Assembly (NCBI GenBank): GCA_025358355.1
Contig: JANYJX010000014.1
Location: 2,893-66,892 of the forward strand
Reading direction: 5' to 3'
Length of the DNA stretch: 64,000 nt
Source of the DNA: Actinomycetes bacterium
Lineage (GTDB): Bacteria; Actinomycetota; Thermoleophilia; Gaiellales; Gaiellaceae
Numbering within the stretch: the first letter of the stretch is position 1; each line of letters starts with the position of its first letter. This document shows, piece after piece, positions 23,085 through 30,900 of this stretch. The notes beneath the pieces were generated by a model, which was given only the letters and a program-made list of their open reading frames with translations, was not told the DNA's origin and made no database searches. The position numbers and the translations under genes were made by a program.

Positions 23085-25865
23085 ATGGCGACCGCTAAGA
23101 CGCAAGGCACGAGCTCCAGCACCACCCCCGCCGAAACCACGGCGGAGTACGTCAACGCCGTCGTTGACGCGGGAGCGCATGTCGCTCCGCGCCGCTTCTT
23201 CACGATCCCGGGCCGCGACCCGTTCGACGAGATCGAGTGGGAGCTCCGTGACGCGCTGATCCCGGGCAAGGACGGCCCGGCGTTCGAGCAGCGAAACGTC
23301 GAGTTCCCCAAGTTCTGGTCGCAGACGGCCACCAACATCGTCGCGCAGAAGTACTTCCGCGGCCGGCTCTCCTCGCCTGAGCGCGAACGTTCCGTCAAGC
23401 AGATGGTCGGCCGTGTCGTCAACACGATCGGCGGCTGGGGCCGCGCGGGCGGTTACTTCGCGACCGACGACGAGGCCGACACGTTCGAGGCCGAGCTGAA
23501 GGCGATCCTGGTCAACCAGTACGCCTCGTTCAACTCGCCGGTCTGGTTCAACGTCGGCTTCGAGGAGAAGCCGCAGTGCTCCGCGTGCTTCATCCTCTCG
23601 ATCGAGGACTCGATGGACTCGATCCTCGACTGGATCCGGCGCGAAGGCGTGATCTTCCGCGGCGGCTCCGGCTCGGGCGTCAACCTCTCGCGGCTGCGCT
23701 CATCGAAGGAGCAGCTCTCGAAGGGTGGCTACGCGTCGGGCCCGGTCAGCTTCATGCGCGGCGCCGATGCGTCGGCCGGCACGATCAAGTCGGGCGGCAA
23801 GACACGGCGAGCGGCGAAGATGGTCGCCCTCGACATCGACCATCCGGACGTCGAAGAGTTCATCTGGTGCAAGGCCAAGGAAGAGCGCAAGGCGCGCGTC
23901 CTCGAGCAGGCGGGCTACGACATGTCGCTCGACTCGCCCGACTGGTCGTCGATTCAGTACCAGAACGCGAACAACTCGGTGCGTGTCACAGATGCCTTCA
24001 TGGAAGCGGTCGTCGAGGGCAAGGACTGGAACCTCACCGCCCGCACCGACGGCTCCGTCGTCGACACGATCGACGCGCGCAGCCTTATGCGCGCCATCGC
24101 CGAGGCGTCGTGGCAGTGCGCCGATCCGGGTGTGCAGTACGACACGACGATCAACGCGTGGCACACGCTGCCGAACACCGCGCGGATCAACGCGTCGAAC
24201 CCGTGTAGCGAATACATGTCGATCGACGACAGCGCCTGCAACCTCGCGTCGCTCAACCTGATGAAGTTCCGCAAGGAGGACGGCGAGCTCGACGTCGAGA
24301 TGCTCGAGCACGCGGTCGACGTGATGTTCCTCGCGCAGGAGATCGCCGTCGGCTACTCCTCGTATCCGACGCCTGAGATCGGCCGCAACGCCGTCCGGTT
24401 CCGTCAGCTCGGGTTGGGCTACGCGAACCTCGGCGCGCTGCTGATGGCGCGGAGCTTCCCGTACGACTCCGACGGCGGCCGTGCGTATGCCGCCGCGATC
24501 ACTGCGTTGATGACGGGCCGCGCGTACCGCAAGTCGGCCGAGATCGCGAAGCGGATGGGCTCGTTCGACGGTTACCGCGAGAACGCCGCAGCGATGATCG
24601 GCGTGATCGCGAAGCACCGTGCCGCCGTTGGGAACATCGACCACGCAAGCTCCGTGCCGGCCGATCTGCTCGGCGCGGCGCGCAAGGCCTGGGACGACGC
24701 GCTCGACCTCGGCGAGGTCGCCGGCTTCCGCAACGCGCAGTCGACGGTGCTCGCGCCGACCGGGACGATCAGCTTCATGATGGATTGCGACACGACTGGC
24801 GTGGAGCCCGACTTCTCACTGGTGAAGTCGAAGAAGCTCGTCGGCGGCGGCGAGATCACGATCGTCAACAAGACGGTGCCGATGGCGCTCGACAAGCTCG
24901 GCTACACGCCGAGCGAGGTCGACGACATCGTCGCGTTCATCGACGAGCGGAACACGGTCGTCGGCGCACCGCACCTGAAGACCGACCACTACCCGGTCTT
25001 CGACTGCGCGATCGGCGAGCGCGCGATCCACTACATGGGGCACGTGAAGATGATGGGCGCCGTCCAGCCGTTCATCTCGGGCGCGATCTCGAAGACGGTG
25101 AACCTGCCCGAGACGTCGACGATCGACGATGTCGGCCAGCTGCTGATCGAGGCGTGGCAGCTCGGTGTGAAGGCGATCGCGATCTACCGCGACAACTGCA
25201 AGGTCGCGCAGCCGCTGTCGGGCTCGAAGGACAAGAGCGAGGCTGGCATCGCCGGCACCTTGATTCCCATTGGCGTCCTGCCGCATCCGAAGCGGCGCCG
25301 CGTGCCCGAGGATCGCACTGAGGTCGGCCGCAAGTTCAAGGTCGGCGAGTACGAGGGCTACATCCACGTCGGCCTGTTCGACGATGGCACGCCGGGCGAC
25401 ATCTTTGTCGACATCGCGAAGGAGGGCACGACGCTCGCCGGCTTGATGAACTCGTTCATGATCTCCGTCTCGCTCGGCCTGCAGTACGGCGTGCCGCTCG
25501 AGGTGTACGTCTCGAAGTTCAGCCACATGCGCTTCGAGCCGTCGGGGATGACGAACGACGCCGACATCCGCGTCGCAAAGTCGATCGTCGACTACATCTT
25601 CCGCTGGATGGGCAAGAGGTTCCTGACGACCGACCAGCAGGAGGAAGCGGGCATCCTCACGGCCGAGGTGAAGGCGCGTCTCGCAGCCGCGTATGCGACG
25701 GGCGAAGCGGCGCCGGCGGCGCTCGAGCCCGCCCCGCCAGGCCAGACGGCGCTCTTCAACACGTGGGAAGACGCAGTCGAGTGCGCCAGGTGCGGCGGCA
25801 GCATGGTGAGGACCGGCAGCTGCTACACCTGCCGCGACTGCGGCACCAACACCGGCTGCTCGTAG
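23085..25865 (+). CDS. nrdJ: Vitamin B12-dependent (class II) ribonucleotide reductase
   Basis: QCSACFI, NASNPCSE, CNLASLNL, APTGTISF and ISKTVN motifs; C-terminal TSCPD-like domain and Zn ribbon ending GCS; GGAGG RBS. Confidence 0.95.
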   Translation: MATAKTQGTSSSTTPAETTAEYVNAVVDAGAHVAPRRFFTIPGRDPFDEIEWELRDALIPGKDGPAFEQRNVEFPKFWSQTATNIVAQKYFRGRLSSPERERSVKQMVGRVVNTIGGWGRAGGYFATDDEADTFEAELKAILVNQYASFNSPVWFNVGFEEKPQCSACFILSIEDSMDSILDWIRREGVIFRGGSGSGVNLSRLRSSKEQLSKGGYASGPVSFMRGADASAGTIKSGGKTRRAAKMVALDIDHPDVEEFIWCKAKEERKARVLEQAGYDMSLDSPDWSSIQYQNANNSVRVTDAFMEAVVEGKDWNLTARTDGSVVDTIDARSLMRAIAEASWQCADPGVQYDTTINAWHTLPNTARINASNPCSEYMSIDDSACNLASLNLMKFRKEDGELDVEMLEHAVDVMFLAQEIAVGYSSYPTPEIGRNAVRFRQLGLGYANLGALLMARSFPYDSDGGRAYAAAITALMTGRAYRKSAEIAKRMGSFDGYRENAAAMIGVIAKHRAAVGNIDHASSVPADLLGAARKAWDDALDLGEVAGFRNAQSTVLAPTGTISFMMDCDTTGVEPDFSLVKSKKLVGGGEITIVNKTVPMALDKLGYTPSEVDDIVAFIDERNTVVGAPHLKTDHYPVFDCAIGERAIHYMGHVKMMGAVQPFISGAISKTVNLPETSTIDDVGQLLIEAWQLGVKAIAIYRDNCKVAQPLSGSKDKSEAGIAGTLIPIGVLPHPKRRRVPEDRTEVGRKFKVGEYEGYIHVGLFDDGTPGDIFVDIAKEGTTLAGLMNSFMISVSLGLQYGVPLEVYVSKFSHMRFEPSGMTNDADIRVAKSIVDYIFRWMGKRFLTTDQQEEAGILTAEVKARLAAAYATGEAAPAALEPAPPGQTALFNTWEDAVECARCGGSMVRTGSCYTCRDCGTNTGCS

Positions 25866-25878
25866 CTTCAGACCGAAG

Positions 25879-25915
25879 ATGGTTGGAGGGCTAGCATCGC
25901 CGACCCTCCAACCAT
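25879..25915. terminator. Stem-loop between convergent genes, probable terminator
   Basis: Perfect 12-bp inverted repeat ATGGTTGGAGGG / CCCTCCAACCAT, 13 nt after the nrdJ stop. Confidence 0.65.
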
Positions 25916-25917
25916 GG

Positions 25918-26403
25918 TCATTCCCTGAGTTCTGAGACGCCGTGAGTTCCGACAACGATCACGCGCGGCAACCGATAGCGATATGCAAACTTCTCGACAG
26001 CTGAGCGACCGCTCGACTGGAACGCCTCTTTAGTCTCAGGCGGCGTCCTTGAACCTTGCATCTGAGCCGCCAAGGATCCAGAAACGCGTACCTCTACTTT
26101 GGCTACGTCACCGTTCCGATCAGCGTCTACGTACCAAGCTGAAGCTGCGTCGGCCCCTCTCCGAGGAGCACCTTCTCGCGAGGCGACTACTTGCCATCGC
26201 AGGTAGGGCTCTAGCTCGTCAACACGGAATCGCGCAGAGACACTTTCTAGGCGTTCGCCTCCCGCCCCCTGCACCGGCACTTCGACCACGGCGTGGGCGT
26301 CGTGAACTTCGAGAACCTCGCCCGGGACCCTATCGAGGCCCCACGGAACCCAGACTCCTTCACCAACGCGTGGCGGCATCTTGACCGAGTAGGCGTTCAC
26401 CAC
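25918..26403 (-). CDS. Hypothetical protein, N-terminal SH3/KOW-like beta domain
   Basis: PRVGEGVWVPWGLDRVPGEVLEV; overlaps the upstream HEPN gene by 7 nt. Confidence 0.55.
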   Translation of the reverse strand: MVNAYSVKMPPRVGEGVWVPWGLDRVPGEVLEVHDAHAVVEVPVQGAGGERLESVSARFRVDELEPYLRWQVVASREGAPRRGADAASAWYVDADRNGDVAKVEVRVSGSLAAQMQGSRTPPETKEAFQSSGRSAVEKFAYRYRLPRVIVVGTHGVSELRE

Positions 26404-26990
26404 GGAGTGTTCCGCCCAAACAAGTTCGAGAGGTGAACCGCAAGCACATTGTCCATGGTAGTCGCGAGTCCGCTCAGTGCACTTCTCCAGGATCTGACCG
26501 TGGCGAGAGTCGGGGGATAACCTTCACTGCGCAAGATGTCTAGCTCGTCCAACCGTGCGTGCGCTATCGCGTTCCGGGCACGGTTCAAGCGTTCGAGCTG
26601 CTGCTGCCGCACGGGTGTCCGCTCATCGCGGTTTGCGAGAGTAGGCCACCAGTCGACTCCGAGACGGCCAAACGCGTCTCCCAACGAACCAGGTTCGGCG
26701 TTTCCTCGGTCTAGCTTCAAGCCGACGGTGAGCGAGGTACGAACCGTTCTCTCTAGGCCAGGATTGCCGTTCGCAGCCCACTCGGCGAAAGTACCCACCC
26801 CCTCACCGTGGAGATCGCGAGCGAACCCTTGGAACTCAGCGGCGAGACGCAGGACAAGCGCCCAGTTGATTTGCTCGGTTCGGGTGCGGCGACCTCGTTC
26901 GGCACCGCCAACTCGCTCGTGAGCACCGAGTAGCTCGTCGAGCCGCCGGGCTCGCGCAACTCGCCAAGTGGAAAGAGCGGCTGATGCCAC
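26397..26990 (-). CDS. HEPN-domain protein (putative RNase)
   Basis: Helical 197-aa protein with the R-x4-H motif RNAIAH (26559-26576) and an upstream AEFQGF segment; TAGCCT 7 nt before GTG 26990. Confidence 0.7.
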   Translation of the reverse strand: MASAALSTWRVARARRLDELLGAHERVGGAERGRRTRTEQINWALVLRLAAEFQGFARDLHGEGVGTFAEWAANGNPGLERTVRTSLTVGLKLDRGNAEPGSLGDAFGRLGVDWWPTLANRDERTPVRQQQLERLNRARNAIAHARLDELDILRSEGYPPTLATVRSWRSALSGLATTMDNVLAVHLSNLFGRNTPW

Positions 26991-27075
26991 GGCACCGAGG
27001 CTAGCTACCGAGCGAGGACTATTCCATTGGTCACTTGTGACATGTCCTGTCGCCGCCGGTCGTAGGATCTGGGTC

Positions 27076-27972
27076 GTGCGCGATGAGGACATCCGCAGCT
27101 CGTGCTTCAATTCTCTTGCCGTGCTCTGCGCGCAGTTCGGTGACGACGTCCCGTACAAAGACGGCCTCGATCGCGGGTTCGCATTCCGGGGGACGCGCGT
27201 TCCGTTCTTGACCTACCAGAAGGGCATCTACCGGGCAGCCGCGCAACGCGGGCCGGCGGCGCTCTCGATCAACACGTCGTACGTCTCGCCGTACGAAGAC
27301 GAGCAGACAGACGCCGGCTTCCTCTACGCCTACCGCGCGGGGTCAATCGATCAGCCCGACAACCGGGCGCTCCGTGCGGCCTGCGAACTCCAGGTGCCGC
27401 TCGTCTACTTCATCGGCACACGACCTGGGTGGTACCGGCCTGTGTTCCCGTCCTACGTGATCGCCGACGATCCTGCCGCCCGTCGCGTCACCGTGGGCGT
27501 CGGCGTCATGGCCGGGCCGCTCGACGATCAAGAGGCCGTCATCGCCGAAGACCCGATCGAGCGCCGCTACGCAGTCCGTCAGACGAGAACGCGACTCCAT
27601 CAGGCACGGTTCCGTGGCCGAGTGTTGCCCGCGTACGGAAGTCAATGCGCGATCTGTCGGCTCAAGGAGGCGCGGCTCCTCGATGCCTCACACATCCTGG
27701 GCGACCTCGACGAGCGTGGCGACGCTGTCGTGAGCAACGGTCTCAGCCTGTGCTCGATCCACCACCGCGCGTTCGACCAAGACCTGGTTGGCGTCTCGCC
27801 GGACTACGAGGTTCGAGTCGCTCCGCGGCTCCTCGAAGATGAGGACGGACCAATGCTTGAGCTGCTCAAAGGCTTCAACGGTCAGCCGATCGTCGTACCT
27901 AAGCGCCGCAGCTGGCAGCCGGACCGGAACCGTCTGGCTGCCCGCTTTGACCGTTTCGTCGCGGCCTCCTGA
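27076..27972 (+). CDS. HNH endonuclease with SRA-like N-terminal domain (putative type IV restriction enzyme)
   Basis: CAIC...DASHI...NGLSLCSIHHRAFD HNH core; N-terminal PYEDE...YAYRAG...DNRAL. Confidence 0.8.
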   Translation: MRDEDIRSSCFNSLAVLCAQFGDDVPYKDGLDRGFAFRGTRVPFLTYQKGIYRAAAQRGPAALSINTSYVSPYEDEQTDAGFLYAYRAGSIDQPDNRALRAACELQVPLVYFIGTRPGWYRPVFPSYVIADDPAARRVTVGVGVMAGPLDDQEAVIAEDPIERRYAVRQTRTRLHQARFRGRVLPAYGSQCAICRLKEARLLDASHILGDLDERGDAVVSNGLSLCSIHHRAFDQDLVGVSPDYEVRVAPRLLEDEDGPMLELLKGFNGQPIVVPKRRSWQPDRNRLAARFDRFVAAS

Positions 27973-27982
27973 TCACTCGTAT

Positions 27983-28381
27983 CTAGCTGCAGACAACCGC
28001 CAAGGCGTCTGACAAGGATGCTGCTGCGTTCCGGAGATGAGGAATCGCTCGATTCGCGGCATCAGCGGCGTCTAACTCATCGGCTACATCAATGACAAGT
28101 GCCCGAAGCGCTGAGAGCGGCGCCTGCGCTTCGAGGGCCGCATCCTCGATGGGGTCGAGGCGCAGCACGGCCAAGGCCGCGTCGATCTGCTCGATCACGT
28201 ATGTCGCGCGCGCCGAGTCGACCGGCGGACACTGAAAGCGCAGCGTCCCGACCGCCCTGACCCTGGTCTCCTCCGATGTGGGAAGGGCGGCAGGATCGTC
28301 CAACGCCGTTCTCGCGCAGGACAGCGCATGCAGCGGATCGATCTCCATCCGATCCATCATGAGCTCAGTACCGGCCGACAT
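27983..28381 (-). CDS. Hypothetical helical protein
   Basis: ORF fills the gap; no recognisable motif; start uncertain. Confidence 0.35.
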   Translation of the reverse strand: MSAGTELMMDRMEIDPLHALSCARTALDDPAALPTSEETRVRAVGTLRFQCPPVDSARATYVIEQIDAALAVLRLDPIEDAALEAQAPLSALRALVIDVADELDAADAANRAIPHLRNAAASLSDALAVVCS

Positions 28382-28487
28382 TTCGGCTACCACGAGATGA
28401 CACACCCCAGTTCAAGCGAGCAAGCGCAATCACGTGCTCGGCCGGACTACCTGTCACGATCAGGGGCATGAACGAGGCAGCGGTTCT

Positions 28488-28694
28488 ATGACGATGCGAA
28501 CACGATCTGTCCAGCTATCCGACGCGGAGATCCATCTCCTTCGGGAGGCATTGGATTCTCACGAGTACTGGCAGCTCTCGGAAACGCAGGAACGCAACGA
28601 CGGCTACTCGATCGTTGAGGATGGCGCGAACGAGGAGATCGATGCCGTTCGGGCACTGGAATCGAAGCTCTGCAAGACAGCGGCGACGCCATAG
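28488..28694 (+). CDS. Small hypothetical protein
   Basis: MTMRTRSVQLSDAEIHLLREALDSHEYWQLS...; plausible composition, no motif. Confidence 0.45.
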   Translation: MTMRTRSVQLSDAEIHLLREALDSHEYWQLSETQERNDGYSIVEDGANEEIDAVRALESKLCKTAATP

Positions 28695-28756
28695 GTTGCG
28701 CGACCTATCGTCAGTGAGCAGCGGGCTCGGGCTCGACGGCGGTGTCTCCTAACGAC

Positions 28757-29326
28757 CTACGCCGAAAGCAGGTCGACGTCGTCGCGGAGCACTTTGGCAA
28801 CGGCGCGGCGTTCCGGCGTGCCGAGCCCCGGCACGCGAGCTCGCACCTCGAGTGCCGCGTTGAGAGCCGCGAGGAACTCCGCTCCCTCACCCACCGACAC
28901 CTCCTCGCCATGAGCTTCGCGTAGCCAGCGGGCCACGTCGCTCCACCGCCACAGGCGGGTTTTCGCATCGACCCACGCGACCGGCGTCGGGAAGTCGCCC
29001 GCGCCTCGCTTGCCCTCGATCAGCAGCCTGACGCTCTCCCGTGTGCGGCCGGCCCGCTCCGCGATCGCTGTCGCGCTGACAAGCTCGTCCGGCTCCACCC
29101 GCAGCACCTGGAGAGGCCGAACGGACTCAACCTGCTCGATCGCGTTCGTGACAGCCTCCGCCAAGCTCGGCGCCATGCGGTCGAATTCCCCGAGCTGAAC
29201 CGGGCCGCGCGTGCCGAAGAGGGCGTCGCTGCAGCCGGCCTCGTACAACCCGTCGATCACGTCTGGGCGGCTCAGGTCTGCGCCTGCGATCACGAGCGTG
29301 AAGCTGAATGTTCCCGGTTCAGACAT
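28757..29326 (-). CDS. HicB-like antitoxin / DNA-binding protein
   Basis: N-terminal alpha/beta segment (FDRMAPSLAEAVTNA) plus HTH LVSATAIAERAGRTRESVR and GDFPTP. Confidence 0.65.
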   Translation of the reverse strand: MSEPGTFSFTLVIAGADLSRPDVIDGLYEAGCSDALFGTRGPVQLGEFDRMAPSLAEAVTNAIEQVESVRPLQVLRVEPDELVSATAIAERAGRTRESVRLLIEGKRGAGDFPTPVAWVDAKTRLWRWSDVARWLREAHGEEVSVGEGAEFLAALNAALEVRARVPGLGTPERRAVAKVLRDDVDLLSA

Positions 29327-29339
29327 CTTTTTCGAGAAG

Positions 29340-29552
29340 CTACGGACACCTCGACGGGGCTTGCACGATCCGACGCGCATGGTTGCCTGGATTCTGCGGG
29401 GTCGCGAACACCGAGAGCTGGCAGCAACCGCGCGGGCAGCGCATCAACGCCCAGACGTGCCCGCTCCTACGCAGAAGCGTCCAGCCCCCACGTTCGACGG
29501 ACGCGAGCGCCTCTCGTACCTCCTTGCTCGGATGACGGTCGTGTTGGCTCAT
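29340..29552 (-). CDS. HicA-like small toxin (Cys-containing)
   Basis: HPSKEVREAL...GWTL...GHVW...CPRGCC..SVFATPQNP; directly upstream of the antitoxin-like gene. Confidence 0.6.
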   Translation of the reverse strand: MSQHDRHPSKEVREALASVERGGWTLLRRSGHVWALMRCPRGCCQLSVFATPQNPGNHARRIVQAPSRCP

Positions 29553-29781
29553 TCGTAGCCGCACTGTTGGCGGTTGTCAACACCTCTCCGAGCGCCCCTC
29601 GAACATAGCCAGCGACGACATCGCCAGATAGTCGCTTAATCGGTCACGACCACAGGAGACAGGACGACGACCAGGGTCGCTTCCATCGCTCTATCGAACG
29701 GCGGACATCAGGAGCCGCTGTGGTGTAGAGACGGCCTTGCAGCGACCATTCATGGTGTCATCGAAAGCCGAGGAGGCACAC

Positions 29782-29988
29782 ATGCATCCCTACTTCTTCT
29801 CCCAGCTGTACCGCGAGCGATTGGCCCAGTTCGAGCGGGAAGCCGAGTACCGCCGGCATCTGCCGAAGCGTGAACGCCGCTTGCTCAGGCAGGTCGGCTC
29901 GCTGCTCATGCGATCGCACCGGACGGTGCCGATCGTGACTGTGCCGATCGTGACGCCGGTCACAGCGGAAGCGTGCACGTGCCACTGA
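29782..29988 (+). CDS. Small hypothetical protein
   Basis: Strong GAGGAGG RBS; [22 protein letters not shown]. Confidence 0.6.
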
Positions 29989-29996
29989 CCGCCACA

Positions 29997-30900
29997 ATGC
30001 GGCAGATTAGCCCGGCAACCGACAGGGCAGGCCACGACCGCTGGCTCGGCGTCGAGGTGCGGCACCTTGCCGCCCTCCGCGCCGTGGCCGAGGAGGGCAC
30101 GTTCGGCGCGGCAGCACTCCGACTCGGCTACGCGCAGTCGGCGATCAGCCAGCAGATCGCCGCGCTCGAACGCCACGTCGGCCGGCGAGCTGCTCCTGGG
30201 ACACGCGGAATCGATTATGACCCGCCTGTCGGCCGCACGGATCGACCTCGACTCGATCGCCGACGAAGATCTCGGCACGACGATTCGCGTCGGCGCCTAC
30301 CAGAGCGTCGCCGCAGCGATCCTGCCGCTCATCCTGCAGGAGCTCGGCGCTGACCCGGACGAAGTGCAGTTCGATCTCACCGAATCGAACGACGACCGCG
30401 TGCTCCTCGAGATGCTGGAACGCGGCGAGCTGGATGTCGCTTTCACCGAGCTGCCGCTGCCCGACCGTCCGCTCGAAGCGACGCGACTCCTGGACGATCC
30501 CTACGGGCTGCTCCTCCACGAGGAGCACCCCTACGCCGCGCTCGGCCGCGATCTCACACTGGAGGAGGTCGCCGCGATCCCGCTGATTGCGTGTAGACGC
30601 AACTCGGGCGAAACCCGCCTAGACGAGGCTTTCGCGCTCCACGGTCTCTTGCCCCGTTTCGTGCAGAAGGTCGAGGACACCGGCACGCTCCACGGCTTCG
30701 TCGTGGCCGGGCTCGGCGGCGGGCTCATCCCGCGCTTGGCCGCGAACGTCGAGGGCAAGCCGCTTGTCGCGCTCCCGATCGAGCCACGACTACCGCACCG
30801 CGTCGTCGCGATCGCCTGGCACCGCGACCGCCTCCACACCGGCACGGCCGGGATGTTCGTCGACCTCGCCGTGGAGGTCGCGGCTCAACACGCGGGCTAG
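29997..30900 (+). pseudogene. LysR family regulator, frameshifted by an internal deletion
   Basis: The HTH (RHLAAL...[24 protein letters not shown]) and the substrate-binding domain lie in different frames; the linker is missing near 30180. Confidence 0.8.

What the first reader, a model, noticed from the sequence alone, without database searches (positions are those of the whole stretch)
25918..26990. HEPN protein translationally coupled to an unknown SH3-like partner: candidate defence or TA module
Seen: a 197-aa helical protein with RNAIAH (R-x4-H) overlaps by 7 nt a 161-aa protein with an SH3/KOW-like start and an unrecognised C-terminal half. Both lie in a visibly less GC-rich patch next to an HNH nuclease. 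Known: HEPN R-x4-H domains are RNases in abortive infection and TA systems, usually paired with an MNT or other partner. Inference: this partner is not an MNT, so the pairing may be new.
Basis: partly seen in the sequence, partly recalled or inferred. Interest (0 to 1): 0.66.

Follow-up and report, generated by a model that had tools for sequence, protein, structure and literature searches.

The report
HEPN nuclease with SH3-fold partner
A horizontally acquired two-gene cassette pairs a predicted HEPN RNA-cutting enzyme with a small SH3-fold protein; the pair travels together in about 80 bacterial species and looks like an unannotated toxin-antitoxin or phage-defence module, but its function is untested.

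Summary
26397-26990(-) encodes a 197-aa all-helical protein with an invariant R-N-x3-H motif. 25918-26403(-) encodes a 161-aa protein that starts 7 or 4 nt inside the first gene, or 17 nt after it. Its N-terminal third is an SH3/Tudor/KOW-like barrel. Both genes have foreign codon usage (GC3 0.59-0.64 against 0.84-0.93 in the flanks).

HEPN membership rests on the motif plus recurrent sub-threshold hits to two independent HEPN models. Foldseek found no structural match.

An SH3-like partner lies immediately downstream on the same strand in 79 of 80 related loci from four phyla. No other neighbour is conserved. The two proteins co-vary (r = 0.82).

Most partners are 58-100 aa and 63% end in alanine. 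The window's C-terminal half is a lineage-specific added domain of unknown fold. The HNH neighbour is not part of the conserved unit.

Pfam, NCBIfam, PADLOC, PHROGs, RefSeq names and the literature search recognise neither protein.

Best reading: a mobile HEPN RNase effector held in check by a cognate SH3-fold partner, that is, a new partner class for a known toxin kind. Toxicity, neutralisation and phage defence are untested.

The parts
26397..26990 (-). HEPN-like gene, 197 aa, the predicted RNase effector or toxin
   Evidence: ORF. 163 homologues, mostly 197 aa. All-alpha AF2 model, pLDDT 95. PF18735 weak hits in 57/95 family members. PADLOC RT-associated HEPN weak hits in 28/95.
26559..26576 (-). 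R139-N-A-I-A-H144, the R-x4-H catalytic-type motif
   Evidence: Read directly. R139 and N140 invariant, H144 kept in at least 90% of 95 sequences.
26808..26837 (-). E52-F-Q-G-F-A-R-D-L-H61, the second strongly conserved block, in helix 2
   Evidence: E52 and Q54 invariant; F53, G55, F56, R58, L60 and H61 kept in at least 90%. This block was the search pattern that recovered the family in genomes.
26397..26403 (-). Gene junction CCGTGGTGA: the HEPN Pro-Trp-stop overlaps two candidate GTG starts of the partner
   Evidence: P196 invariant and W197 kept in at least 90%. With maximal ORFs, 39 of 66 related loci overlap and 25 of 66 have gaps of 25 nt or less.
25918..26403 (-). Partner gene, 161 aa as maximal ORF (153 aa if the ATG at 26379 is used)
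26218..26370 (-). SH3/Tudor/KOW-like beta-barrel domain (about residues 12-62), the part conserved across the whole family
   Evidence: AF2 strands E15-60. Foldseek SH3-like hits. A domain HMM finds it directly downstream of HEPN in 76/80 loci, and three more were read by eye.
25921..26205 (-). Lineage-specific C-terminal domain (residues 67-161; three strands, three helices, two strands), function unknown
   Evidence: AF2 model. Conserved in close relatives. Also exists as free-standing 89-96-aa proteins and as a tandem pair. No Pfam or PDB-sequence match.
26991..27072 (.). Divergent intergenic region between the HEPN gene and the HNH gene, presumed to hold the promoters
   Evidence: HNH start inferred at about 27073 from the L001 homologue. 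No sigma-70 consensus found. 93% identical in the 90%-identity relative L083; a short palindrome here is not conserved there.
27073..27972 (+). HNH endonuclease. Island neighbour, not part of the conserved module
   Evidence: PF13391 and PADLOC HNH. Among related loci, a homologue lies next to the module only in L001 and L083.

Best explanation
This is a self-contained, horizontally mobile two-gene cassette. The first gene encodes a divergent HEPN-superfamily protein nearest the RiboL-PSP / AbiD-AbiF branch. I infer that it is a metal-independent RNase using R139/N140/H144. The second gene is co-transcribed and translationally linked. It encodes a cognate SH3-fold protein that binds the HEPN protein and keeps it inactive. 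When the partner is lost (proteolysis or halted synthesis) or displaced during phage infection or other stress, the RNase is freed and arrests the cell. That is the logic of a type II-like toxin-antitoxin or abortive-infection module. In the window the partner also carries a roughly 95-aa C-terminal domain of unknown fold, which may tune or sense rather than neutralise.

Shown: the gene anatomy, the motif and its conservation, the folds, near-obligate synteny, co-variation, foreign composition, and variable and mobile contexts.

Inferred: RNase activity, toxicity, neutralisation by binding, and the trigger.
For: (1) R-N-x3-H is invariant or nearly so in an all-alpha protein. Weak but recurrent hits go to two independent HEPN models, with no competing family: PF18735 in 57/95 members, best 1.2e-5; PADLOC RTasHEPN in 28/95, best 6.9e-5.

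(2) An SH3-like partner lies immediately downstream on the same strand in 79/80 loci across Actinomycetota, Planctomycetota, Myxococcota and Nitrospirales. It is also present in the two plasmid copies examined (M. abscessus plasmid 1 and Nocardia pPE-7) and in an IMG/VR element.

(3) No third conserved gene was found. The 145 nearest neighbours fall in 160 Pfam families.

(4) The junction is tight: 39/66 overlaps and 25/66 gaps of 25 nt or less. One locus, L023, carries an in-frame HEPN-SH3 fusion.

(5) Pairwise identities of the two proteins correlate: Pearson 0.82, Mantel 0/2000. The partner evolves faster, 26% against 41% mean identity.

(6) 36 of 57 short partners end in Ala (AA, PA or SA) against 19 of 145 neighbour proteins, Fisher 4e-12. 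This fits an ssrA-like C-terminal degron on a labile antitoxin.

(7) The HEPN gene is knocked out while the partner ORF stays intact in L011 (nonsense), L026 (frameshift) and L078 (IS-like insertion plus nonsense).

(8) Signatures of mobility or conflict: GC3 0.59-0.64 against 0.84-0.93; the cassette lies directly beside tyrosine integrases (L081, L086; 5 of 145 nearest neighbours); it sits beside MADS, Shedu, AbiEii, MTases, HNH and PDC-M06; up to two HEPN copies occur per MAG.

(9) No structured RNA or tandem repeat is present that would suggest an RNA antitoxin.
Against: No HEPN model reaches its curated threshold; the window protein scores 15.9 bits against 28.4 for PF18735. A confident model found no HEPN or any other structure in PDB or BFVD. 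A profile search of PDB sequences found nothing.

The partner has no recognisable DNA-binding domain, so classical autoregulation is not evident. The window's own partner lacks the Ala tail and carries an extra domain, so it may not behave like the short partners. Some partners carry what looks like a PD-(D/E)xK nuclease domain on sub-threshold hits only, which fits an effector or sensor better than a plain antitoxin.

Many nearest neighbours are housekeeping genes, and defence enrichment was not measured against a background. The Ala-tail and co-variation statistics are not corrected for phylogeny. MAG frameshifts may be assembly errors. There are no expression or phenotype data; the source is a sediment metagenome.
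Confidence: 0.55

Rival explanations
1. A two-component defence effector in which the SH3-like protein is a positive subunit, not an inhibitor. It would act as an adaptor that docks on the HEPN RNase and brings RNA-binding, sensing or a second effector activity through interchangeable C-terminal domains. Both proteins would be needed for activity, and neither would be toxic alone without a trigger.
For: The constant SH3 domain carries at least five unrelated C-terminal extensions: the window type; a PD-(D/E)xK-like type with D...EVK/DIK motifs and weak Mrr_cat, DUF4143 and MmcB hits; a planctomycete type; the 263-aa M. abscessus plasmid type; and none at all. SH3, Tudor and KOW folds often bind nucleic acids or peptides (one search hits). 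L023 carries an in-frame fusion. The window's C-terminal domain also exists free-standing elsewhere.
Against: About three quarters of partners are the bare domain of roughly 60-100 aa, too small to add a function beyond binding. The enriched C-terminal Ala tail and the repeated loss of HEPN with the partner retained fit an inhibitor better than an activator.
Confidence: 0.22
2. The helical protein is a catalytically different or inactive HEPN-like scaffold, and the pair has a non-conflict role such as RNA or nucleotide binding or regulation on mobile elements. The R-x4-H motif would then be a binding feature.
For: There is no significant sequence or structural match to any characterised HEPN. 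The other invariant residues (E52, Q54, N97) have no assigned role. Many neighbours are ordinary metabolic genes.
Against: R and N are invariant and H nearly so, exactly as in active HEPN RNases, and two independent HEPN models are the only recurrent hits. Distribution is patchy across four phyla: tblastn confirmed relatives at 114 stretches in a collection with one genome for each of 185,579 species (80 loci kept, two of them from one MAG in three cases), and context varies throughout. Composition is foreign and the cassette sits beside integrases. These are not features of housekeeping genes.
Confidence: 0.13
3. The cassette works together with the adjacent HNH endonuclease as a three-gene restriction-like system.
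For: An HNH is adjacent in the window, in the 90%-identity relative L083, and in L001 where it is 68% identical.
Against: An HNH homologue is absent from the other 79 genome loci. Its position and strand differ between the window (divergent, upstream) and L001 (downstream, same strand). No third gene is conserved.
Confidence: 0.04

Closest known systems
HepT-MntA (HEPN/MNT) toxin-antitoxin, type VII TA
   Same: A small HEPN protein with an R-x4-H motif is encoded with a tightly linked cognate partner in a mobile two-gene cassette.
   Different: The partner here is a roughly 55-aa SH3-like barrel with no nucleotidyltransferase fold or motif, so neutralisation by AMPylation is excluded. The gene order is HEPN first. 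No DUF86/HepT profile hit was found.
RiboL-PSP-HEPN (PF18735), in the Abi2/AbiD/AbiF branch of HEPN (Anantharaman et al. 2013, PMC3710099)
   Same: It is the only Pfam family hit recurrently (57/95 members), aligned over the region that carries the R-N-x3-H motif. Per the paper, this family keeps the R-x4-6-H motif.
   Different: All hits are below the gathering score. There is no L-PSP fusion and no ParB operon, which the paper lists as that family's associations. The SH3 partner is not mentioned there.
RT-associated HEPN of DRT/AbiA-type systems (PADLOC PDLC03820)
   Same: It is a second, independent HEPN model with recurrent weak hits (28/95 members, best 6.9e-5).
   Different: No reverse transcriptase lies in or next to the cassette. 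The window protein itself gives no hit.
RnlA-RnlB and LsoA-LsoB (HEPN RNase LS toxins with small protein antitoxins)
   Same: The proposed logic is the same: a HEPN RNase is neutralised by direct binding of a small, unstable protein, and the outcome is phage exclusion (from established knowledge).
   Different: There is no sequence or fold similarity to RnlA or RnlB. RnlA is a much larger multidomain protein. The taxa also differ.
Type II TA antitoxins with small beta-barrel folds (MazE/AbrB-type swapped hairpin)
   Same: A small beta-rich protein is encoded next to an endoribonuclease toxin and evolves faster than the toxin.
   Different: The fold here is SH3/Tudor/KOW-like, not a swapped-hairpin barrel. 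No DNA-binding function is evident. The gene order is toxin first.

Membership tests
HEPN superfamily | Conserved R-x4-6-H motif, usually R-[NDH]-x3-H | tested here: met
   R139-N-A-I-A-H144. R139 and N140 invariant, H144 kept in at least 90% of 95 homologues.
HEPN superfamily | All-alpha helical-bundle core superposable on known HEPN structures | tested here: inconclusive
   The AF2 model is entirely helical with pLDDT 95. Foldseek found no hit below E = 0.8 in PDB or BFVD, HEPN or otherwise. Coordinates could not be inspected.
HEPN superfamily | Significant profile match to a HEPN family model | tested here: inconclusive
   PF18735: window protein E = 0.012, 15.9 bits against a cut-off of 28.4; 57/95 members match at E < 0.1, best 1.2e-5. 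PADLOC RTasHEPN: 28/95 members, best 6.9e-5. No PDB sequence hit.
HEPN superfamily | Metal-independent RNase activity | not testable with these tools
   Needs biochemistry.
RiboL-PSP-HEPN (PF18735) | Score above the Pfam gathering threshold; fusion to an L-PSP domain or a ParB operon | tested here: not met
   15.9 bits, below 28.4. No L-PSP or ParB in the window, and neither among the 25 commonest Pfam families of the 145 nearest neighbours, the only part of the list shown.
HEPN/MNT (type VII) TA | The partner is a minimal nucleotidyltransferase | tested here: not met
   The partner has no Pfam, NCBIfam or PADLOC hit, and its conserved part is an SH3-like barrel.
Type II toxin-antitoxin module | Two small adjacent co-oriented genes, tightly spaced, inherited as a unit in variable contexts | tested here: met
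   79/80 loci; 64/66 junctions between -23 and +25 nt; Mantel r = 0.82; no other conserved neighbour.
Type II toxin-antitoxin module | Antitoxin with a DNA-binding domain that autoregulates the operon | tested here: not met
   No HTH, RHH, AbrB or Phd-type domain detected. An upstream palindrome is not conserved in L083.
Type II toxin-antitoxin module | Proteolytically labile antitoxin | tested here: inconclusive
   63% of short partners end in Ala against 13% of neighbour proteins, which suggests a degron. The window's long partner ends ...ELRE.
Type II toxin-antitoxin module | Toxicity of one product, neutralised by the other | not testable with these tools
   The only indirect evidence is four loci with a disrupted HEPN, three of them with the partner ORF clearly intact.
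Type III TA (RNA antitoxin) | Tandem-repeat RNA next to the toxin gene | tested here: not met
   No relevant tandem repeat or Rfam hit in 25000-30500.
Known or candidate defence systems in PADLOC v2 | A hit to a system protein model | tested here: not met
   No hit for either window protein at E <= 1.
SH3-like barrel fold (partner N-terminal domain) | Small five-stranded barrel superposable on SH3, Tudor or KOW domains | tested here: met
   Foldseek: NdhS 6l7o_S TM 0.71, 6hum_S 0.74, Ssl0352 0.71, KapB, Sgf29 Tudor and Spt5 KOW, prob 0.98-1.0, but E only 0.015-0.07.

The most novel reading that the evidence does not exclude
The SH3-like protein is not a passive antitoxin. It would be a modular docking adaptor that couples interchangeable sensor or effector domains to a dedicated HEPN RNase. 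The candidate domains are the window's strand-helix-strand domain, a PD-(D/E)xK-like nuclease domain, a planctomycete alpha/beta domain and the 200-aa mycobacterial plasmid extension. This would define a previously unrecognised family of plug-in anti-phage systems found mainly in Actinomycetota and Planctomycetota.
Probability: 0.2. Interest if true: 0.75.

Novelty: new variant of a known kind. Interest (0 to 1): 0.56.

Why it matters
HEPN RNases are a recurring weapon in toxin-antitoxin, abortive-infection and CRISPR-associated systems. Each known family is controlled in its own way: MNT adenylylation, RnlB binding, cyclic-oligoadenylate sensing. A cassette conserved across phyla, in which the controller is a roughly 55-aa SH3-fold protein, would add a new control principle.

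It would also give names to two protein families that RefSeq, Pfam, NCBIfam and PADLOC currently leave as 'hypothetical'. It would supply a small two-gene system from Actinomycetota, including plasmids of Mycobacteroides abscessus and Nocardia, that can be tested directly for toxicity, neutralisation and phage defence.

The variable C-terminal domains on the partner may show how such modules acquire triggers.

Tried and rejected
- **Structural homology for the HEPN model.** Foldseek against PDB and BFVD gave nothing below E = 0.8. A profile search against PDB sequences returned only chance hits.
- **Identity of the window's C-terminal partner domain.** The search of 1.84 billion representative proteins found free-standing 89-96-aa homologues. 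It also found spurious-looking partial matches to Big_7 Ig repeats in giant proteins. The two contexts that could be read were short contigs and uninformative. A profile search of PDB sequences and a Pfam scan of each member found nothing.
- **HNH as a third component.** Rejected: a homologue occurs in only 1 of 80 genome loci, plus L083.
- **att repeats or a tRNA target for the island.** No convincing direct repeats were found. The one ARAGORN tRNA lies inside nrdJ and is probably false.
- **Operator palindrome upstream of the HEPN gene.** GTCACAAGTGAC is not conserved in the 90%-identity relative.
- **Promoter and terminator scans.** Nothing found.
- **RNA antitoxin.** None found.
- **Phage carriage.** 0 of 50,697 phage genomes and 1 of 2.9 million IMG/VR contigs, and that one sits at the integrase edge.
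- **Expression data.** Only DNA metagenome runs hold the sequence.
- **Literature.** Four full-text searches found no description of a HEPN plus SH3-like pair. The 2013 HEPN census does not list it.
- **Profile search with the partner alignment.** It mostly recovered the roughly 150-aa planctomycete-type partners, because 60-aa domains cannot reach significance in a database of 5.8 billion sequences.

Full report
**1. What is in the sequence**

On the minus strand, 26397..26990 is a 197-aa ORF with a GTG start, and 25918..26403 is a 161-aa ORF. The 197-aa length is shared by most of 163 database homologues, which fixes the start at 26990.

The junction reads CCG TGG TGA, that is Pro-Trp-stop. 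It contains two in-frame GTG codons for the downstream ORF, giving a 7-nt or a 4-nt overlap. An ATG at 26379 would instead give a 17-nt gap. Four homologues begin near that ATG. So tight linkage is certain, but the exact overlap is not.

The region is compositionally foreign. GC3 is 0.59 for the partner and 0.64 for HEPN, against 0.93 for the adjacent nrdJ and 0.85 for the LysR gene. Window GC dips to 0.60-0.64 over 25750-28750.

The roughly 3.8-kb low-GC stretch between nrdJ (ending at 25865) and about 29700 also carries:
- a divergent HNH endonuclease;
- an unassigned 140-aa/86-aa gene pair;
- a PADLOC candidate pair, PDC-M06 A/B.

**2. Is the first protein a HEPN?**

R139-N-A-I-A-H144 is present. 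R139 and N140 are invariant and H144 is kept in at least 90% of 95 aligned homologues. A second block, E52-F-Q-G-F-x-R-x-L-H61, along with N97 and the C-terminal Pro-Trp, is equally conserved. The AF2 model built on 95 sequences is confident (pLDDT 95, pTM 0.91) and entirely helical.

The evidence from profiles and structures is mixed:
- The only Pfam hit is RiboL-PSP-HEPN, below threshold for the window protein (E = 0.012, 15.9 bits against 28.4).
- When every family member is scanned, 57 of 95 hit that model (best 1.2e-5) and no other family recurs.
- Independently, 28 of 95 hit PADLOC's RT-associated HEPN model (best 6.9e-5).
- Foldseek found nothing in PDB or BFVD, and a profile search of PDB sequences found nothing.

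I therefore treat it as a divergent HEPN-superfamily protein, nearest the Abi2/AbiD-F/RiboL-PSP branch described in PMC3710099. It is not a member of any defined family.

**3. The partner**

AF2 on 10 sequences (pLDDT 88) gives an N-terminal five-stranded barrel at residues 15-60. A second domain follows, made of three strands, three helices and two strands.

Foldseek places the barrel among SH3-like folds: NdhS with TM 0.71-0.74 on the target, Ssl0352, KapB, Tudor, KOW and PWWP. Probability is about 1, but E-values are only 0.015-0.07.

The C-terminal domain is conserved only among close relatives. It also exists elsewhere as free-standing 89-96-aa proteins and as one tandem pair. It has no Pfam or PDB-sequence match.

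**4. Comparative genomics**

A scan of one genome per species recovered 80 loci (tblastn confirmed relatives at 114 stretches; 80 loci were kept). They come from Actinomycetota (Gaiellales, Solirubrobacterales, Acidimicrobiales, Streptomyces, Micromonospora, Actinokineospora, mycobacteria and others), Planctomycetota, Myxococcota and Nitrospirales.

- **Co-occurrence.** An HMM of the partner's barrel finds it directly downstream on the same strand in 76 of 80 loci, including 10 loci not used to build it. Three Fimbriiglobus loci that the HMM missed (L040, L042, L051) carry a recognisable divergent version, as does L079, which the HMM matched only weakly. The only locus without a partner, L073, has a degraded HEPN.
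- **Junctions.** With maximal ORFs, 39 of 66 junctions overlap and 25 of 66 have gaps of 25 nt or less.
- **Neighbours.** All-against-all clustering of flanking ORFs finds no other conserved neighbour. The 145 nearest neighbours fall into 160 Pfam families.
- **Co-variation.** HEPN and partner pairwise identities correlate (Pearson 0.82; 0 of 2000 permutations reach it). The partner evolves faster, 26% against 41% mean identity.
- **Fusion.** L023 carries an in-frame HEPN-SH3 fusion.
- **Other carriers.** The pair is also found on plasmid 1 of Mycobacteroides abscessus subsp. bolletii 50594 and on the Nocardia plasmid pPE-7; a third, Nocardia farcinica, replicon matched the HEPN query but its region was not read. 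In both plasmid records examined the two genes are annotated 'hypothetical protein'. A further copy sits beside the integrase of an IMG/VR element. It is absent from 50,697 phage genomes.

**5. The partner is modular**

About three quarters of partners (57 of 76) are little more than the barrel. The rest carry unrelated C-terminal extensions:
- the window type (window, L001, L007, L029, L081, P0121-P0130, P0232);
- a roughly 130-aa type with D...E/D-[VI]-K motifs and sub-threshold Mrr_cat, DUF4143 and MmcB hits, suggestive of a PD-(D/E)xK fold (L015, L018, L021, L022, L025, L046);
- a planctomycete type;
- a 263-aa form on the M. abscessus plasmid.

**6. Clues to mechanism**

- **Alanine tails.** Short partners end in alanine far more often than neighbouring proteins do: 36 of 57 against 19 of 145, Fisher 4e-12, with AA 16 times, PA 9 and SA 7. 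Their overall Ala content is only 8%. This resembles ssrA-type C-terminal degrons and would fit a labile antitoxin. The count is not phylogenetically corrected, and the window's long partner ends ...ELRE.
- **Knocked-out HEPN genes.** The HEPN gene carries a nonsense mutation in L011 and L020, a frameshift in L026, and an IS-like insertion in L078. The partner ORF remains intact in L011, L026 and L078. This is the pattern expected when a toxin is inactivated first, although MAG assembly errors cannot be excluded.
- **Context.** Neighbourhoods include tyrosine integrases (5 of 145 nearest neighbours; directly adjacent in L081 and L086), MADS, Shedu, AbiEii, type II methyltransferases, baeRF, a ThiF/ubiquitin-like cluster, HNH and PDC-M06. 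Many ordinary metabolic genes also occur.
- **No RNA antitoxin.** No Rfam family or tandem repeat that could serve as an RNA antitoxin is present.

**7. Interpretation**

The best-supported model (confidence about 0.55) is a mobile toxin-antitoxin or abortive-infection-type cassette. In it, the HEPN protein is an RNase effector and the SH3-fold protein is its cognate, co-translated inhibitor.

The main rival (about 0.22) is that the SH3 protein is a positive adaptor or sensor subunit carrying swappable domains. Less likely readings are a non-nuclease, non-conflict role (about 0.13) and a three-gene system with the HNH (about 0.04; an HNH homologue is present in only 1 of 80 genome loci plus L083).

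Anatomy, conservation, folds, synteny and mobility are shown. RNase activity, toxicity, neutralisation and the trigger are all inferred.

**8. Comparison with known systems, and novelty**

The cassette works like HEPN toxin systems such as HepT-MntA and RnlAB. It fails the defining test for HEPN/MNT because the partner is not a nucleotidyltransferase. It also fails the threshold and association tests for RiboL-PSP-HEPN.

It matches no PADLOC, NCBIfam or PHROGs model. It was not found in four full-text literature searches or in the 2013 HEPN census.

I rate it a new variant of a known kind: a known toxin superfamily with a new class of partner. Interest is 0.56. The module is real, conserved across phyla, unannotated and easy to test, but it is rare, its function is inferred, and its logic is probably familiar.

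Noticed in passing
window 28757-29564 (-): Two overlapping genes match the PADLOC candidate defence system PDC-M06: 74 aa at 29340..29564 (PDC-M06A, 1.6e-14) and 207 aa at 28757..29380 (PDC-M06B, 1.3e-24). The B protein also hits phrog_2620, 'excisionase and transcriptional regulator' (2e-31). This looks like a second small TA-like or defence pair in the same island.
   Followed up: partly
window 26968-27972 (+): HNH endonuclease (PF13391; PADLOC HNH PDLC04132 at 4e-24). Only the C-terminal HNH part resembles the phosphorothioate-DNA restriction model NF045808 (63.6 bits against a cut-off of 180). The N-terminal ~200 aa are unassigned. The real start is probably near 27073, because the 68%-identical L001 homologue aligns from residue 36 of the maximal ORF.
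   Followed up: partly
window 27983-28405 (-) and 28434-28694 (+): A divergent pair of ORFs, 140 aa and 86 aa, with no hit in Pfam, NCBIfam, PADLOC or PHROGs. They sit between the HNH and PDC-M06. The 86-aa ORF has a weak relative in L011.
   Followed up: no
window 24012-24103 (-): ARAGORN calls a 92-nt tRNA-Thr(CGT) inside, and antisense to, the nrdJ (class II ribonucleotide reductase) ORF. It is probably a false positive.
   Followed up: no
L023 1580-2398: In an Egibacteraceae MAG, the HEPN and SH3-like domains are fused in one 272-aa ORF: the Pro-Trp-stop is replaced by a linker and the protein ends ...VRAA. This is either a natural fusion or an assembly indel.
   Followed up: partly
L059 6537-7339; L042 4586-6047: L059 has three extra SH3-like ORFs in tandem after the partner. 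L042 (Fimbriiglobus) has two tandem HEPN copies. Both are local duplications of module parts.
   Followed up: no
L078 3616-6390; L011, L020, L026: The HEPN gene is interrupted by a ~2.2-kb insertion encoding a 426-aa HTH protein (IS-like) in L078. It carries a nonsense mutation in L011 and L020 and a frameshift in L026. The downstream partner ORF is intact in L078, L011 and L026.
   Followed up: partly
L081 4473-7973: Directly upstream of the module in a 345-kb JGI contig lies a Multi_ubiq (PF14452) / ThiF E1-like / DUF4325 cluster, that is, a bacterial ubiquitin-like conjugation set. A tyrosine integrase, HTH_17 and an MT-A70 methyltransferase lie directly downstream.
   Followed up: no
P0230, P0240, P0241, P0227: The window partner's C-terminal domain gives partial matches (motif like GW[FY]VD..G.AKVEV.V.G) to repeated Big_7 Ig-like domains in large surface proteins. 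This may be a chance local similarity or a hint that the domain is a beta-sandwich derivative.
   Followed up: partly
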